In this document: piece after piece, positions 51,962 through 63,591 of the stretch
Layout of the letters: every line of letters begins with the position of its first letter
How positions within the stretch are numbered: the first letter of the stretch is position 1
Made by a program: the position numbers and the translations under genes
NCBI RefSeq assembly: GCF_041956535.1
Contig: NW_027192219.1
Location: 299,866-363,865 of the forward strand
Direction: 5' to 3'
Length of the DNA: 64,000 nt
Origin: Calcarisporiella thermophila CBS 279.70
Taxonomy: Eukaryota > Fungi > Calcarisporiellomycota
Notes under the pieces: generated by a model
What the model was told of the DNA's origin: nothing
Seen by the model: the letters and a program-made list of their open reading frames with translations, nothing else
Databases searched by the model: none

Positions 51962-54900
51962 ATGCAAGAGTTTAAGTTGCATGGAGTTATCTTTCATTAT
52001 AATGAAGGTCAAGGCGATGAATTCGAGCCACAAGCTCTCGCGCTACAGCGAAAATCGCAGAACAATGTATTGATGAGAAAGGGAGAATCTGCTTATGGTA
52101 TTGTAGAGAATATTCCTCGGTTTCTTGAACAGGTGCAGTGTACGGAGAAGTTGGAAGATCGAGATTATTATGTTCTTGCCACAGAGCAAGACAATAAGCT
52201 CGGATGGATGGTGGTTGAGTTGCACGTGGTGAATAATCTCTATAGAGGGTCAGTTTTCAGGCGCGATCAATATCCAGAAAATGTAGTCATAAGGTAAATT
52301 TCGAGCTTAGACATAAAAATGACTAAGCAAATTCTTAATTCTTGTTTTTAGATATTTGATGGGGATATACCAGAGAGCAATGCAAAGTGTTTTCGGGGTA
52401 GAATGTGATAATGCATCTGGTTTTGCAGTATCTAGTGCGCATTAACAAGTGGATGAATCTACCGTGAAGCTTTTATTCCACACTGTGTCGCGCCTGAAAA
52501 ACAAGAGTAACCAATTATTAGTATTTGAGAATATACAACAGGAGAAAGCCTTCATCGAAAAGGTAAACCAGCTGACAGTAATAGAGTGAGGCGTTTCGAT
52601 GGTTAAATGGGCTATATTTGTAGCTCCATGAATACATTGAATACGATGATCGAAATCTCAACGAGTGTGCTAATATTTTATATGGAGGAAACCAACCTGA
52701 AAAAAACATGTAAAATGGAAATAGCGCGTTTCGTTTACTTGGAAGCATCCGCAGCGGACACGCAGAATCATTGCTTATGGTCGAGAAGGAACTCGGCGGT
52801 CGCTTTTGTAGTCCGTTAGATCACTTTCCTTTAGTTACCCAGTCAATCTATACAGAAACAGCGGTTGAAGTGCTAAAGCTATTTCCTGTTCTTACGGTAA
52901 GAACGGAACCAACTATAGCGGTGGTACACAAGAATTGGGAGCATGTCATTAATTCATTTGCACCTAATGTTACTAATGGGATATATCCGGTCACGTCCTC
53001 ACTGGTTTCTGGGTCACGGCTACCGCCCTTGAAATGTGTTCCCTTACCTGATGATGGGGAGCTTATTGGCAAAATTCGATCCAAATATCCTCACTGCCCT
53101 AGAATATATGATGTTGTGCAATTCGCAGAAGTGAAGGGACTGAAGTTGCAATGCTATACACCTTGGAATGAACAAGTTCCGGATACATGGGTGTTTCGTT
53201 TTTATCCTAGTACTAGTAGACTGGAGACTACCGAGTGTATGCACGTGAGTCAGGGGAGTCAGATTATCTGGACCTGTGTGCCGATGGACAGCTATGCGAA
53301 TACAAGCAATATGCGCGTCCGTCTGTCGGATACGGTGCCCATACATTCAGGATTCGGGAAACTAGTATTTCGTTGCCTGGATCCAATATGCCCTAAAGAA
53401 ACATATATAGATGAATATGGAGCGAGTTGGCCTTATAACATGTTGCCTTACCTCACCCCACCCGACATGTTATATCGCGTTGTTCATCATGAGGGCCTTG
53501 CTGGTGCCGCTAAGTGGCTTGTTTCGAGGTTATGCGGTCCTGATAGCCGTCAACCCAAGCTCGCATATCTTCCTCTGTTGGACAAATGGGTAGCATGGGA
53601 TGGAGTGGTTTGGAGAAGATATACTGAAATTCCTGCAGAGCTTTCGATGGGGTGCTCACGATATGTCGAACGTATACGTGCTCAACTTCCTGTTCGAGCA
53701 GAAGAGGATGCGGTCACAACCGGATTGATTCGAATCATGGATTTTACTCTCATGCGATTTTAACACTATTTAAATATCCACAAGAACCTGGAAAAGAATG
53801 TGGACAAAATGCTCTATGAACTTCCGGGCGAAATATTCGACACAGCCTCCTCCTTACTTGTCATCAATAATAGATACCTTGATCTTAAGCAAGGTCGTTT
53901 CGTTGAAACGCGACCTAATCATTATATAACTCACAGTGTGCCTACCTACTATGACTCCGAGGTAGATCTCTGTCATGACACAGGTTCGCTACCTCTTGTA
54001 GATGAATTCATGAATTCCTTATTCGAAGATCGTGAAGCCGACGAACGGGTTTCGACAATCTCCTCGCTTCAAACTTTCCTTGGATATTCATTGACTGGAG
54101 AGGCTAGTGAACACCTTTCTCTCATCCTGTATGGCGAGGGGAGAAATGGTAAGGGCGTTTTAACCCGCGCTATTCGTGCGGTATTCGATATAGCAGATGA
54201 GCGACCGATACAGGACGCCTCAAGCACTCAAATTCTGAAGCGTTCGGAATTACGCCAGATGCTAGCATACCCAACTCATGATGAGTTACTTACCCAGACA
54301 TGCCCAATAAAAAGGAGATACTCTGTCGCGACTTCCCAGCATTTCCTCTATACCATTGTCGATAATAAACTCATAGCTAAGACGGCAAAAACTAGCAAAA
54401 ATGCACACACAACACAACCTGTGAGCTTAGTTGGAGCTCGTGTTGTATTAGTGAATGAATTGGATGTGAATGCACAGCTTGACGAGGCGAAGCTCGAACG
54501 ATTGTCGAATGGAGATCCACTTTGCATTCGGAAAATTTATGGAAGGACAACATTTACTATCTCTAGCCCAACTCACACTCTTCTAATTGACACCAGTACC
54601 ATACCTAATAGACTAATTGGGCGATCATTGAGTTCGCATACTCGGGTTCTCAGATTTAACCTATACTTCAATGCGAACAAAAAGCCGGGCGATCCGCTCA
54701 ATACCAATGAGCGAGTAGCGGACACTTGGATGGAAACTAAAATTTTGGATGTATCGTTTCGACGTCAACTCTTGCGATGGCTTTTACGCGGTGCCCATCG
54801 ATATTATCAACAAGGGCGTTTACGCTGGGCCAAATCCATTGAGCAGGACACGCGTGCATTTTGGGGCGAAGATGACTATTTCGATCGATTTCTGATTGAA

Positions 54901-55155
54901 AAATGCGAAATGGCCAAGAAATTGCTTCCGTTAGAGGAAGCCATCCAACGCAAACTATACACACCAGCGTTTAGCCTCTATGACAGGTTTCGTAACTATG
55001 TGCGAGAGCAAGGCAATGTCGATAGTGCCAATATACTGAGTAAGAAGGCCTTTATTTGCCGTCTAGGGAGCCAGCCATATATATTTAAGAAACGCACAGC
55101 CCAAGGGGAATTGAGTCGTCAATGGCATTACTTTGGTTTGCATGTCTTAGAATGA
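51962..55155 (+). pseudogene. Intron-containing AEP(PrimPol)-Zn ribbon-D5/SF3 primase-helicase, virus/mobile-element type, with 3 in-frame stops
   Basis: Exons 51962-52293, 52352-52562 and 52624-55155 give 1025 codons in one frame, with TAA at 52443, 52711 and 53761. AEP-like motifs are 'YYVL..QDNKLGWMVVE', 'KLLFH', 'VFENIQQEKAFI' and 'M*NGNSAFRLLGS'. Downstream are a Zn-ribbon-like 'FRCLDPIC', D5N-like 'KWVAWDGVVWR' and 'INNRYLDLKQGRF...PNHYIT', Walker A GEGRNGKG (54133-54156), Walker B 'RVVLVNE' and 'LSNGDPLCIRKIY'. Confidence 0.85.
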
Positions 55156-56296: not shown

Positions 56297-56614
56297 CTAT
56301 TTAGGGCAAGTTTGCTTCACTTCGGGGGTGCCCTTGGCCTGCTTGCAGAGCTTGGAGAAGTTCTTCTCCTGACTCTTGCAGTCGCCTGAACCTTTGTAAA
56401 CGCATTTCCAACCGCGGATGGAATACTGCTTGCAATCATATTCACCAGACAAAGAGGTGGCCAACTTTCGACACTGCTCTGTGCCTGTACCATAGCAGAC
56501 TGAATTTTCTTTGCCGTACTCGCCGGTAAGCCCGCATGCTGCCTCGCCTAGGGCCACGCAGATCAAAAATACGGCCGCTACGAAGAGTAGCTGCGAGATG
56601 CCCATTTTAGCCAT
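56297..56614 (-). CDS. Small secreted cysteine-rich protein (105 aa, 8 Cys in mature part)
   Basis: Signal peptide MAKMGISQLLFVAAVFLICVALGEA. The mature part is Lys/Gly-rich with 8 Cys. An upstream TATA box supports this ATG over the 214-aa ORF start. Confidence 0.8.
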   Translation of the reverse strand: MAKMGISQLLFVAAVFLICVALGEAACGLTGEYGKENSVCYGTGTEQCRKLATSLSGEYDCKQYSIRGWKCVYKGSGDCKSQEKNFSKLCKQAKGTPEVKQTCPK

Positions 56615-56743
56615 TATTGAAAAAGTAGAGTAGCGTTTGTGATGAAGACAAAGATAATTATCGGAAAGTACCAAGCGTTTGCGGAGGTAAAGGTATAAAA
56701 CTAGAAAAACATGATGATGTTTTTTGTGAAGAATTTGAGGGCC

Positions 56744-56750: not shown

Positions 56751-58717
56751 CTGTGGTGATTGCAAATGCAATATACTAAAAATAGCGTTTTCCTGAAACC
56801 CGGAGTAAAATTATTTTTAACAGTCTCAAAAAGAGATGCCAGTGTGGGTGGGCGTAAACGAGTAGGAACCAGGTTTGCGCTGCGGTGTTGGATTGTATTA
56901 AAATCATGCGAAAAATCGAGGCTTGTGTGACTGAGTTTCATAAATAATCATTAAAAATAAATCCACCCTGTAATTAGCCGTTGCCCAATCAGGGCGGCCC
57001 GTCGGTTCTGGAAACCAAGTACTTCAATTGGGTGTTCTCGCTCTGCCTAATCCCTGCAGAGCTCTCATGCGTGAGAATTTTGCCGTTAAGTCCACATCAC
57101 TTCCGCTATTTTTAGGCATTCTTGTCACTCCTGAACTGGGGAAACTGACATGAGCAGGATGAAAATAGCCCTTAACCTTATGCGACTTTCTATGACGGAC
57201 ATTTGTGCAGCATCTTCCATCCTGGGTTGGTCGCATGGCCTCCTTGGCACTATGCAAAGCAAACTTGCCCGCGTGCTTTGGAGAGACTACAGCGAGCTCT
57301 GATCCATGCTTTCTATCGCTTCACCGAGTTAAGACCAGGAGAGCGCAAGTGTCTTCTTAGCACCTCTCTTGATGCGCTTTACAATGTTGGCTGCACATTT
57401 TCTATATAGAGTATCGTTTTGACTTTTCTAATGAATACTGTGATACCAAAATGACCTCTATTGGCACGTTAATGAGGCGCTTGGACCTCCTCTCTTTCGA
57501 CCAATCATCAAAGTAGTAAATGGATATGCACTACGTCATCAGCATCGGCCTTAATTCCTGAACTTAATGTTGCATTCCCACCTCCAAGCGGGTCGGTCTA
57601 TACTTGTAATTTTAGCCTTATGAGATTACTATTGCTTAGAGGATCTATTTGGTTTACCAATAGGCTAGTTTTTCATATTATTGAAAACTTTATTGGATGC
57701 AATACCATTTAATGCTGTAAGTTGGTGGATATGTGTCCCTACGGTCATATTTTCCTATGCGAATATGAAAATTTATCACTTGGTTGGCGATACTTATTTC
57801 AACCCCTTGTCATAGGAGATACCAACAATTCTTATTGAATACTTATGAAAAATTCTTTGGCGTAATATACCTACAAGTTGGACCCTGGGATCGATTGGTA
57901 TTTATATATTACGAGCAAATATTTATTAGGATCTTTCGACCGATATGAAGCAGAACATTCACAACTTTCACAAGAGCGAATAACTGGATAAGAGTTCTTG
58001 AAATATCTCCCGATTTCTCAAAATACCTCTCTAGCTGTTCAGTCTTGGGTGATTCTGAGGCTCTTGAAAACGCACAAATGACCGCTAAATTGTATTTTGG
58101 CGGACTAGTCCTTGAACCCTTATTTGGGGATCCATTGCGCAAAGCATGAATCCCAAATATTTTCGCCCAACAAGGATTTAGAGTCCAGTTGTGCAGCCGA
58201 TCAGAATATGAGGCTGACCCTGGTTGTCAATTGATGAAAGCAAGGATGGAAAGTCTCTTTTTAATTTGAGACACCGAGCTCTGGTTTCATCTCTGCCCAC
58301 AATAACAAGTGCAAAATGGCTCAGCTACTTCATTTTTCACGAGAAATAGTGGAAATAGGAAGTCACTACGATGTCGTTGAAGAGCTTAGCGCCTTCGGGT
58401 TTTTTTTCTCATTAATCGGCGAATTTGAATTTGCTGGGTTGAGGCCAACTCGTCTCTTGAAAGACTACCTAAGGGAGGCGGTTAGATTGCCAAATGTTAG
58501 ATACATTTATTGCACGACTACAGATCTTTGCCGACAAGAACGTAGGCACATCGTTCTATTTTGGAGACTGTTTTTGCAGACCTCATTTGCAAATGCACAA
58601 AATGCGCCCTTTGGACACACCTTTTGCTAGCGAATTATCATAAAGATTGGGCATATCATAAAAATTTTTATTTGTTTGGACTTTTACAGGGGGAGGCGTA
58701 ATGGCCAATTTCAATCT

Positions 58718-60975
58718 TTAAAATATTCCACCACGTCCACCTGGTCCGAATTGGGCCCCACGTCCTCCTGGTCCAAATGGGCCCCCGCGTCCTCCTGGTC
58801 CGAATGGCCCACCGGGCCCACCTGGTCCAAATGGGCCTCCACGTCCTCCTGGTCCAAATGGGCCCCCACGTCCTCCTGGTCCAAATGGGNNNNNNNNNNN
58901 NNNNNNNNNNNNNNNNNNNNNNNNNNNNNNNNNNNNNNNNNNNNNNNNNNNNNNNNNNNNNNNNNNNNNNNNNNNNNNNNNNNNNNNNNNNNNNNNNNNN
59001 NNNNNNNNNNNNNNNNNNNNNNNNNNNNNNNNNNNNNNNNNNNNNNNNNNNNNNNNNNNNNNNNNNNNNNNNNNNNNNNNNNNNNNNNNNNNNNNNNNNN
59101 NNNNNNNNNNNNNNNNNNNNNNNNNNNNNNNNNNNNNNNNNNNNNNNNNNNNNNNNNNNNNNNNNNNNNNNNNNNNNNNNNNNNNNNNNNNNNNNNNNNN
59201 NNNNNNNNNNNNNNNNNNNNNNNNNNNNNNNNNNNNNNNNNNNNNNNNNNNNNNNNNNNNNNNNNNNNNNNNNNNNNNNNNNNNNNNNNNNNNNNNNNNN
59301 NNNNNNNNNNNNNNNNNNNACGTCCTCCTGGTCCAAATGGGCCTCCACGTCCTCCTGGTCCAAATGGGCCCCCACGTCCTCCTGGTCCAAATGGGCCCCC
59401 GAGTCCTCCTGGTCCGAATGGCCCACCGGGCCCACCTGGTCCAAATGGTCCACCAGGCCCACCAGGTCCGAATGGGCCTCCGCGTCCTCCTGATCCGAAT
59501 GGCCCACCACGTCCTACTGGTCCAAATGGTCCACCAGGCCCATCTGGTCCGAATTGGGCCCCACGTCCTCCTGGTCCAAATTGGCCCCCACGTCCTCCTG
59601 GTCCAAATGGTCCACCAGGCCCACCTGGTCCGAACGGCCCGCCGCGTCCACCACCTAATTGCCCATTATTTCCACCACTAGCCGACTCACCACGTCCACT
59701 TGGCGCGGACTGTGGTTGTCGAGCTTGTTGCTGCTGTCTTGCACGTTGTTGCTGTATTTGTTGGTTTTGCCGCGCCTGTTGCTGCTGTTGTGCTTGTTGC
59801 TGCTGTAGTTGTTGATTTTGCCGTGCCTGTTGATTCTGCGTTTGTTGTCTATTATTTTGCTGTGCTCGTGTACTTCCAACATTTGGTTGTGCGGTTTGCT
59901 GCCTACTATTTTTCTCTTCTTGTTGTTTTGAGTTCACTTGTTTACGTTCAGCGTTTGATTGTGTTTGTCGCCCACCCTCTTGCAGATTCTCATTCTGCTT
60001 TGCTTGTTGTTCTGAGTTCACTTGTGTACGTCCAGCGTCTGATTTTGCTAGTTGCTCGGCGTTTTGCGGATTCTCACCCTGATCTTCTTGTTGCTCTGAA
60101 TTCCCTTGTGTACGTCCAGCGTTTGATTGTACTTGTTGCCCACCGTTTTGAGGAATATCATTCTGCTCGGCTTCAACACTGGTGGAGTTCTCGCGTGCGT
60201 TGCTACTAGCATCATTGCAAGTAATCTCAGAAGATAAAAATCTATTTCCCTCAATTATATTCTTCAAATCTTCGATTTGCTTCACTGAAGCTTGAAAAGT
60301 GCACTCTTCTTCATCGGGTAGAGGAGTAAGATTATTCCTAATTGCAAATTCTCCTATCGTTCTGAGGCTAGTTTCACCAAGGAAGTCCTCACCTCTACCT
60401 CCTAAAACGTTAACTGAACAAGAGCTACCATTTGGCTGTTTGAAAACAAACTGCCTCGTATTTTCGCATTTGTCAACGCGATTTGCAGAAGCACGAGGTG
60501 TCGGATCGTCTGGGAAAACAAGTCTATCTTCATTTGCTCCTGCTGCTCCATTATTGGGTGCTCGGGTTCCGCCTCCAGATAATTTCGCAATTTCTTCAGA
60601 ACTACCTGTATTTAGTATTCTATTCATTTCGAAGGAGTCAAGTTCAACTCCAGCGCGACCACCCAGCTTTTCGCATGTAGCCTTCCGACCTGCCGTTGTT
60701 TCATTTTCTGCGGTACATTGAGCCGGTATTTTCGGATTCCTGGATTTACCACAGGTTACACCATTTATAGTTAAAAGTTTCGGCCGACCTGTGCCGACTG
60801 TTGCCTCACAAATTGATCCCTGAACTTCGCAAGCAAGTTCAGGTGTTTCACCTGCACTTCGAAGCCTTCCAGCAATAGGAACTATACATCTTCCAGTATT
60901 ATTCTGGCCTTTTACTTGAGCTGAGAAGAGGGTTACAGCAAGGACATGAGTAAGCGTAATGATAGAGAATCTCAT
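58718..60975 (-). CDS. Secreted modular protein: Cys-containing N-terminal domains, Q/N-rich repeats, (GGPFGPGGR)n Gly/Pro tail
   Basis: Signal peptide MRFSIITLTHVLAVTLFSAQVKG, 6+4 Cys, ~28-aa repeats, polyQ/R and 9-aa Gly/Pro repeats on both sides of the N gap. The natural end is ...GPGGRGGIF* with the stop at 58718-58720; the ORF track loses frame across the gap. Confidence 0.85.
58727..59655. repeat. 27-bp coding tandem repeat (minisatellite), interrupted by assembly gap
   Basis: The unit ~CGTCCTCCTGGTCCAAATGGGCCCCCA is repeated on both sides of the N-run. Confidence 0.95.
58890..59319. other. Assembly gap (430 N)
   Basis: Run of N inside the 27-bp repeat array. Confidence 1.
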
Positions 60976-61062
60976 GGTTTACCGATTGAAATGAGTGTAT
61001 AAAGAGAAGAATAACGAAGTTGTACCAGACAAAGATGGATTATCACTGTTGTTATCTAAGCC

Positions 61063-62681: not shown

Positions 62682-62956
62682 CCCTATAAGAAGTGGGCAT
62701 AGGGAAAACATAGGGAAATAATATGGAACTCATGCGCAATACCTCACTTTCCCTATAATTTCCTTACCATTTCCTTATATTTCCTTTAATTTTTCTATAA
62801 ATTCCAAGTCCTTACCCATATAAAAAATCCATATAAAAATCATTAAAAATTATAGCAAATCTCAGGAAATCATACGGAAAATGAGGTGTTCCCTGTGTTT
62901 TCCACATTATTCCCCTATGTTTTCCCTACTTTTTCCCTATGTGACTTCCTATAGGG
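62682..62956 (+). mobile_element. MITE copy 1 (275 bp), CCC-terminal TIRs, probably CMC/CACTA-derived
   Basis: The ends are CCCTATAAGAAGT...ACTTCCTATAGGG, with subterminal TAGGGAAA/TTTCCCTA motifs. It has no coding capacity and is near-identical to the reverse complement of 63318-63591. Confidence 0.85.
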
Positions 62957-63317: not shown

Positions 63318-63591
63318 CCCTATAGGAAGTCACATAGGGAAAAAGTAGGGAAAACATAGGGGAATAATGTGGAAAACACAGGGAACACCTCATTTTCCGT
63401 ATGATTTCCTGAGATTTGCTATAATTTTTAATGATTTTTATATGGATTTTTTATATGGGTAAGGACTTGGAATTTATAGAAAAATTAAAGGAAATATAAG
63501 GAAATGGTAAGGAAATTATAGGGAAAGTGAGGTATTGCGCATAGTTCCATATTATTTCCCTATGTTTTCCCTATGCCCACTTCTTATAGGG
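63318..63591 (-). mobile_element. MITE copy 2 (274 bp), inverted relative to copy 1
   Basis: Reverse complement of copy 1; the only difference noticed is a 1-nt indel (GGAACTCATGCG vs GGAACTATGCG). Confidence 0.85.

What the first reader, a model, noticed from the sequence alone, without database searches (positions are those of the whole stretch)
51962..55155. Hidden ~1024-aa AEP-PrimPol / Zn-ribbon / D5-SF3 primase-helicase: a viral-type replication gene in a fungal chromosome
Seen: three ORF-track fragments (51962-52297, 52771-53763, 53800-55155) and unlisted sequence between them join into a single frame of 1025 codons. The domain order is an AEP-like catalytic region, a C..H...CxDPxC Zn ribbon (FRCLDPIC, 53374-53391), a D5N-like region, an SF3 helicase (Walker A GEGRNGKG, Walker B VVLVNE) and a winged-helix-like C-terminus (FSLYDRFRNYV...SKKAFICRL). 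The AEP-like motifs are I-like YYVL..KLGWMVVE, II-like KLLFH and III-like M*NGNSAFRLLGS, compared with PrimPol YEV..KLYFDLE, KxSxH and VYTRNRNFRL..SSK. Established: AEP fused to a D5-type SF3 helicase is the replication module of nucleocytoplasmic large DNA viruses, some Polinton-like viruses, phages and plasmids. Cellular eukaryotic PrimPol has no such helicase. Inference: this is an endogenised remnant of a fungus-infecting large DNA virus or a self-replicating mobile element, possibly an undescribed lineage. Standard annotation would report only the helicase half.
Basis: partly seen in the sequence, partly recalled or inferred. Interest (0 to 1): 0.88.

Follow-up and report, generated by a model that had tools for sequence, protein, structure and literature searches.

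The report
Broken virus-type primase-helicase gene in fungus
A lone, broken gene for a virus-type DNA-unwinding enzyme, with a likely primase front half, sits between ordinary fungal genes; it belongs to a small, distinct gene family of early-diverging fungi that likely came long ago from a DNA virus or virus-like mobile element.

Summary
The gene is real but broken. It is not one frame: 1,024 codons appear only after two predicted introns (58 and 61 nt) are removed, and three in-frame TAA stops remain. The D5_N/SF3 helicase half is certain. The PrimPol-type primase (AEP) half has moderate support, and the UL52-like zinc finger is supported mainly through relatives. The helicase groups (100/99) with proteins from Basidiobolus ranarum, Entomophthora muscae and a spliced, open-frame metagenomic copy; a Calcarisporiella fragment is 58% identical. 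The family has a private insert after Walker A. No member was found in viral contigs or prokaryote genomes. Its origin is unresolved between giant viruses, Polinton-like viruses and phage/plasmid primases. No terminal repeats or other viral genes flank it. This copy has lost 4 of 15 near-invariant helicase residues (motif C asparagine, arginine finger) and its AEP motifs are altered, more than three stops would predict. Verdict: a pseudogene of an apparently undescribed, intron-bearing D5-type family of early-diverging fungi. D5 relics in such fungi are already known as a class.

The parts
51962..52293 (+). Predicted exon 1 (ATG start); holds the AEP motif-I-like stretch, with VELH (52214-52225) where PrimPol-type AEPs have DxD/DxE
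   Evidence: alignment; on its own not significant by hhalign
52294..52351 (+). Predicted intron 1, 58 nt
   Evidence: splice signals and frame only; boundaries not fixed by homology
52352..52562 (+). Predicted exon 2; AEP motif-II-like KLLFH (52467-52481); internal TAA at 52443-52445
52563..52623 (+). Predicted intron 2, 61 nt
   Evidence: best of 127 alternatives; gap-free alignment across the junction to a viral PrimPol-like protein
52624..55155 (+). Predicted exon 3, one frame without frameshift to the final TGA; internal TAA at 52711-52713 and 53761-53763
52699..52746 (+). AEP motif-III-like stretch EKNM*NGNSAFRLLGS (catalytic Asp position is Glu; contains a stop)
53230..53391 (+). PrimPol/UL52-like C-H-C-C zinc finger, degenerate in this copy
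   Evidence: alignment; relatives P0020 and P0014 beat 1000 of 1000 shuffles, the window copy is matched by 39 of 1000
53530..54024 (+). D5_N (collar) domain, interrupted by the third stop
   Evidence: Pfam PF08706 E 1.8e-11
54133..54639 (+). SF3 ATPase core: Walker A intact (54133-54156), family-specific insert of about 50 aa, Walker B VVLVNE (54442-54459), motif C Asn replaced by Ser, arginine finger replaced by His
54874..55152 (+). Winged-helix-like C-terminal domain
   Evidence: AlphaFold model confident here; aligned as part of the D5/C962R match; weak RFX5 hit E 0.053

Best explanation
This is a broken gene copy, with three stop codons and altered catalytic residues, of a small family of D5-type primase-helicase genes of early-diverging fungi that likely descends from a DNA virus or Polinton-like element and has likely lived in fungal nuclei long enough to gain introns. 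An intact member would be expected, from poxvirus D5 and ASFV C962R, to form a hexameric ring: the D5_N collar and SF3 ATPase would unwind DNA, and the AEP domain with its zinc finger would lay primers. This copy cannot make that protein (shown: stops; inferred: no ATPase or primase activity). It probably lost catalysis before its frame broke, and it stands alone between a DJ-1 gene and a secreted cysteine-rich gene, with no element around it.
For: Helicase identity. Distinct top tier of 7 relatives among 1.84 billion representatives (six at E 2e-62 to 1e-21, P0141 at 2e-15); the 3 named ones are Basidiobolus ranarum, Calcarisporiella thermophila and Entomophthora muscae. Monophyly 100 (7 of 266 rows), 99 (6 of 56), 100/99 (5 of 41). 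Walker A to B spacing 83-106 aa in 5 of 6 measurable members against at most 56 in 195 of 195 measurable outsiders. Metagenomic relative L001 has two GT-AG introns, one splitting Walker A, and a 441-aa open spliced frame. AEP profile 17.5 bits, 0 of 2000 shuffles as high. Loss of 4 of 15 near-invariant helicase residues, a level reached by 1 of 259 outsiders, against about 5% drift expected from 3 stops (p 0.02). No repeats or viral genes in the flanks. GC3 0.40-0.42 against 0.50-0.78 in 11 host ORFs.
Against: The donor is not resolved: the family's sister has 45/82 support, and neither giant viruses (p-AU 0.37; 0.70 with a higher likelihood) nor the PLV-like group (p-AU 0.47) is rejected. AEP support depends on the profile: of 5 valid profiles 2 were clear (0/1000, 0/2000), 2 marginal (16/1000, 3/2000) and 1 negative (248/1000); the positive ones were composed after seeing which sequences resembled the query, and the seed set came from a recalled motif-III pattern. 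hhalign probability is only 40%. No relative with an N-terminal AEP half was obtained, and that region could not be folded. The 15 sites were chosen after seeing the data; over all 36 conserved columns the window keeps 23, like its relatives. Poxvirus, asfarvirus, iridovirus, Pitho-like and fundsalphavirus D5s were not in my trees.
Confidence: 0.55

Rival explanations
1. Scattered relics of a still or recently mobile element or virus of early-diverging fungi (Polinton-like virus, fundsalphavirus-type giant virus, or a linear plasmid-like element), each inserted separately and decaying; the gene never served the host.
For: Patchy distribution and fragmentary gene models; low GC3; D5 genes are part of fundsalphavirus insertions in Basidiobolus heterosporus and Mortierella verticillata (PMC7017919); AEP-SF3 fusions are common PLV replication modules and PLV genes occur in fungal genomes; best Atlas structural match of the B. 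ranarum protein is a Preplasmiviricota cluster, TM 0.70 against 0.63-0.67 for the others; an earlier AI note on another genome reached a similar reading (untested).
Against: No terminal repeats or partner genes here; no member in IMG/VR; introns at different sites in two members; no named Neocallimastigomycota or Mortierella protein among the 7 top-tier relatives, although 4 of the 7 are unnamed.
Confidence: 0.25
2. A chimera made in a fungal ancestor: a cellular PrimPol (AEP plus UL52-type zinc finger) fused to a phage/plasmid P4-type helicase taken from a bacterium, for example an endosymbiont.
For: The N-terminal half resembles PrimPol-like proteins more than C962R-type D5 N-termini (mean z 1.65 over 41 vs 0.49 over 75 proteins; zinc finger); the best non-family hits are mostly P4-type primases; the careful tree places the family among them, weakly.
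Against: No member found in the scan of one genome per prokaryote species (two short patterns only); poxvirus D5 already has primase, Zn-binding, collar, AAA+ and C-terminal domains in one chain (PMC9611036), so no new fusion is needed; no eukaryotic PrimPol was in my comparison.
Confidence: 0.12
3. The gene is still in use: the stops are assembly errors or are bypassed, and the product is a catalytically dead DNA-binding ring, or the two annotated ORFs (328 and 448 aa) are expressed separately.
For: No frameshift in the 2.5-kb third exon, splice signals intact, Walker A intact; catalytic loss exceeds what the stops predict.
Against: Host genes in the window end in TAA (DJ-1, UTP20, ANKRD13-like), so TAA is a stop here; the third stop cuts D5_N in the middle; three independent errors are unlikely.
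Confidence: 0.06
4. Contamination or a chimeric join with a viral or bacterial contig.
For: GC3 differs from host genes; no reads could be laid.
Against: The locus lies on a 382-kb contig; the only N run of the window is at 58890-59319; the gene has short AT-rich introns like those of the neighbouring DJ-1 gene (67 and 101 nt); its relatives are fungal.
Confidence: 0.02

Closest known systems
Poxvirus D5 / mpox E5 primase-helicase
   Same: Same five-part order (primase, Zn-binding, collar, AAA+, C-terminal; PMC9611036); best PDB sequence hit of the family profile (E 3.6e-4); fold match
   Different: 13-15% identity; spliced nuclear gene; about 50-aa insert after Walker A; catalytic residues altered; likeness of the two zinc modules not tested
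Giant-virus D5-like / ASFV C962R primase-helicases
   Same: D5_N + SF3 + winged-helix fold (Foldseek E 1.6e-20; BFVD)
   Different: The sampled ones checked with Pfam carry PriCT-2 between AEP and D5_N; this family has a CHCC finger there; it falls outside their clade
Fundsalphavirus D5 genes in fungal genomes (Gong et al. 2020, PMC7017919)
   Same: D5 helicase-primase relics in early-diverging fungi, including Basidiobolus and Mortierella
   Different: Those flank a viral PolB with RNA polymerase and SNF2 genes; none is seen here.
Polinton-like virus / virophage AEP-SF3 replication genes
   Same: Single-gene primase-helicase module; sisterhood to an unnamed group with such architectures is not rejected
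   Different: No capsid, A32 ATPase, recombinase or terminal repeats; no member in IMG/VR
PrimPol (CCDC111; herpes-pox primase family)
   Same: AEP motifs I-III region followed by a UL52-like CHCC zinc finger (definition from PMC5295015; tests)
   Different: Fused to an SF3 helicase; DxE, SxH and xD motifs not conserved in this copy

Membership tests
D5/P4-type SF3 primase-helicase | D5_N domain before the ATPase | tested here: met
   Pfam D5_N E 1.8e-11
D5/P4-type SF3 primase-helicase | SF3 AAA+ fold and C-terminal winged-helix-like domain | tested here: met
   model pLDDT of 90 or more for 292 of 842 residues; Foldseek
D5/P4-type SF3 primase-helicase | Intact Walker A, Walker B, motif C, arginine finger | tested here: not met
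   Window copy: Walker A and Walker B Glu kept; motif C Asn and arginine finger lost. L001, P0011 and P0014 keep them
PrimPol / herpes-pox AEP family | AEP domain homology | tested here: inconclusive
   17.5 bits, 0 of 2000 shuffles, but profile-dependent; no Pfam hit; no usable fold
PrimPol / herpes-pox AEP family | Catalytic motifs DxE/DxD, SxH, xD | tested here: not met
   aligned residues are ExH, LxH and Glu
PrimPol / herpes-pox AEP family | UL52-like CHCC zinc finger | tested here: met
   met at family level: P0020 15.6 bits and P0014 9.2 bits, 0 of 1000 shuffles each; window copy 39 of 1000
Endogenous nucleocytovirus (GEVE, fundsalphavirus, Mycodnaviridae) | Linked viral hallmark genes (PolB, MCP, A32, RNA polymerase) | tested here: not met
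   28 of the window's ORF stretches scanned with Pfam gave host families only; six-frame scans of three flanking stretches gave 0 of 18 hits; rest of the genome not held
Endogenous nucleocytovirus (GEVE, fundsalphavirus, Mycodnaviridae) | D5 nests within a nucleocytovirus clade | tested here: inconclusive
   outside the sampled clade; sister position not rejected; several viral families unsampled
Polinton / Polinton-like virus | Terminal inverted repeats, integrase or tyrosine recombinase, capsid genes | tested here: not met
Domesticated host gene | Single-copy syntenic orthologues under purifying selection, expressed | not testable with these tools
   no genome held; only one 1.9-kb locus of a relative could be fetched

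The most novel reading that the evidence does not exclude
Early-diverging fungi (Mucoromycota and Zoopagomycota) keep a spliced, host-resident PrimPol-helicase: a one-protein virus-type replisome tamed as a cellular gene, intact in some lineages (L001, B. ranarum keep the ATPase residues) and passing through a catalytically dead stage before loss in this one.
Probability: 0.22. Interest if true: 0.78.

Novelty: new variant of a known kind. Interest (0 to 1): 0.5.

Why it matters
D5-type primase-helicases are hallmark replication genes of large DNA viruses, Polinton-like viruses, phages and plasmids. A separate, intron-bearing clade across two fungal phyla points either to an undescribed DNA virus or element of these fungi, or to a domesticated replication enzyme. 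Either is testable by synteny and selection analysis in public genomes. The copy in this window is dead, which limits its own importance; the value lies in the family.

Tried and rejected
Sequencing runs: none was listed; no evidence either way. Word-based protein searches missed the close relatives; only the HMMER search found them. Viral-contig scans with the window protein and two family alignments found no relative; the eight-row alignment was too divergent for patterns. Prokaryote genome scan negative. Single-sequence fold of the middle ORF was useless (pLDDT 36); the N-terminal 265 residues of the larger model were also unmodelled. The profiles held one wrong-strand row (L023) and are discarded; redone. 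Exon 1 alone gave no significant match. RIP: no signature. TAA reassignment: rejected. Replitron_C hit on P0015 (E 0.011): below cut-off, 1 of 7 proteins, not pursued. Zymocin-type killer plasmids: the paper's text has no occurrence of 'primase'. Atlas look-up of the P0020 N-terminus gave scores under 0.9 only. Grouping with P0122 is probably long-branch attraction; it was among 16 of 57 rows dropped for the careful tree (long, partial or redundant rows). Literature: 7 searches listed no description of this family; the library lacks most subscription papers.

Full report
Observation. The stretch 51962-55155 is not a single frame. The first 110 codons lie in one frame, 70 further codons in a second, and the rest in a third. 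Removing two short AT-rich GT-AG segments, 52294-52351 and 52563-52623, gives 3075 nt, that is 1024 codons and a final TGA, with three internal TAA stops. The neighbouring DJ-1 gene has introns of 67 and 101 nt. Intron 2 is the best of 127 alternatives against an AEP profile; intron 1 rests on splice signals only, and at least 5 of 253 alternatives score higher. TAA ends host genes here, and there is no RIP signature. Public annotation holds two products of the locus, 328 and 448 aa, on a 382,455-nt contig.

Helicase half. Pfam D5_N matches across the third stop (E 1.8e-11; 3.4e-7 for the downstream ORF alone). Eight PHROGs families match, best E 1.3e-37; 566 phage records match at low identity (22-24% for the 20 listed). 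An AlphaFold model from a 38-row alignment is confident over the helicase half only and matches ASFV C962R and mpox E5 and many giant-virus, virophage and phage D5 proteins about equally, at 11-17% identity.

Primase half. No library profile matches it. I collected viral PrimPol-like proteins with a short pattern recalled from PrimPol motif III (16 loci, 11 distinct PrimPol-like and 2 D5-fused ORFs used; many relatives carry Pfam Herpes_UL52) and 75 distinct giant-virus D5 proteins. The spliced N-terminal 260 aa were scored against five valid profiles: PrimPol-like only, 16 of 1000 shuffles as high; C962R-type D5 N-termini, 248 of 1000; mixed, 0 of 1000; D5-fused PrimPol-type, 3 of 2000; combined, 17.5 bits, 0 of 2000. 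Unspliced frames reach at most 5.8 bits. The alignment is collinear from the motif I region to motif III. The catalytic positions read ExH, LxH and Glu instead of DxD/E, SxH and Asp (motif definitions from passages of PMC5295015). I rate AEP homology as likely, not proven: the profiles were partly chosen after seeing the data. The zinc finger is supported through relatives: P0020 and P0014 beat all 1000 shuffles against a PrimPol-like finger profile, the window copy does not (39 of 1000).

Family. Among 1.84 billion representatives, 9294 proteins score at E 0.001 or better; besides the locus itself, five score below 1e-30, and P0020 and P0141 join them in trees. Named members are from Basidiobolus ranarum (33%, 3.7-kb contig), Calcarisporiella thermophila (58% over 158 aa, 1.25-Mb contig) and Entomophthora muscae (666-kb contig); four are unnamed. 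The one locus I could fetch, L001 (1897 nt), has two GT-AG introns, one splitting Walker A, and a 441-aa open spliced frame; the window gene has no intron at those sites. The family is monophyletic in three trees (the short Calcarisporiella fragment was not in them). It has a long Walker A to B spacing in 5 of 6 measurable members and replaces a glycine that 96% of 259 outsiders keep. No member was found in IMG/VR or in the prokaryote genome set; these scans use short patterns and can miss distant members.

Origin. The careful tree (41 of 57 selected rows, out of 266) puts the family outside the giant-virus clade (100/100) and outside an unnamed group with PLV-like architectures (93/94; my label, from domain content), with no supported sister. 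AU tests reject neither grouping; on the 56-row set the tree joining the family to giant viruses had the higher likelihood. The Atlas's best structural match for the B. ranarum protein is a Preplasmiviricota cluster, by a small margin. D5 genes are already reported in fundsalphavirus insertions of early-diverging fungi (PMC7017919: parts 1-2 of 3 of the text, supplement searches and part 5 of 7) and in Mycodnaviridae (PMC13533422, passages); AEP-SF3 fusions are common in PLVs (PMC11296320 and bioRxiv 10.64898/2026.06.19.733378, passages; the preprint's supplements were not seen and may hold related sequences).

State of this copy. It differs at 4 of 15 near-invariant helicase sites, among them the motif C asparagine (259 of 259 outsiders) and the arginine finger (257 of 259); L001 differs at 1, P0011 and P0014 at none, and 1 of 259 outsiders loses as many. 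Three stops imply about 5% neutral amino-acid change (range 1-14%); a common rate is rejected at p 0.02 (sites chosen after inspection). The Walker B Asp to Asn change is not counted, since 13 outsiders have Asn there. With no frameshift in exon 3, this suggests that catalysis was lost before the frame broke. Over all 36 conserved columns the copy is no worse than its relatives, so this is an inference.

Context. Upstream is a divergent DJ-1/PfpI gene, then Raptor and UTP20; downstream a small secreted cysteine-rich gene. There are no terminal repeats around the gene, no second copy in the window, and no viral family in the flanks. The host lineage was not determined.

Verdict. A pseudogene of an apparently undescribed, spliced D5-type primase-helicase family of early-diverging fungi. 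It works like (in its intact form, by inference) poxvirus D5 (PMC9611036, passages). It cannot be filed as an endogenous giant virus or Polinton on the features tested. New variant of a known kind; interest 0.5.

Noticed in passing
window 62682-62956 and 63318-63591: Two 275-bp units in perfect inverted orientation, 361 bp apart; each unit begins CCCTATA and ends TATAGGG and has internal 11-bp repeats. Looks like a MITE pair or a non-autonomous DNA transposon; TTAA on the far left only.
   Followed up: partly
window 58711-60978 (-): Secreted-looking protein with 28-aa and Gln-rich repeats followed by a 27-bp Gly/Pro tandem array that spans the only assembly gap, 58890-59319.
   Followed up: no
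window 56297-56617 (-): Small secreted-looking cysteine-rich protein of about 105 aa with no Pfam or PHROGs match.
   Followed up: partly
window whole: GC falls from 0.50-0.68 in much of the first 16 kb to 0.29-0.45 beyond 50 kb; the D5-type gene lies at the start of the AT-richer, gene-poor part.
   Followed up: no
L001 1639-1896: An unidentified ORF starts about 270 nt after the relative's stop codon and runs off the contig; no PHROGs match.
   Followed up: partly
L010-L024 (IMG/VR): A large family of stand-alone PrimPol-like proteins of about 350 aa (AEP plus UL52 finger) on large viral contigs; 159 relatives found.
   Followed up: partly
proteins P0031, P0065, P0081, P0132: Unnamed Prim-Pol (PF09250) plus cysteine/histidine finger plus D5 helicase fusions on 3-35 kb contigs, grouping with AEP-PriCT2-D5 proteins; possibly PLV or virophage genes.
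   Followed up: partly
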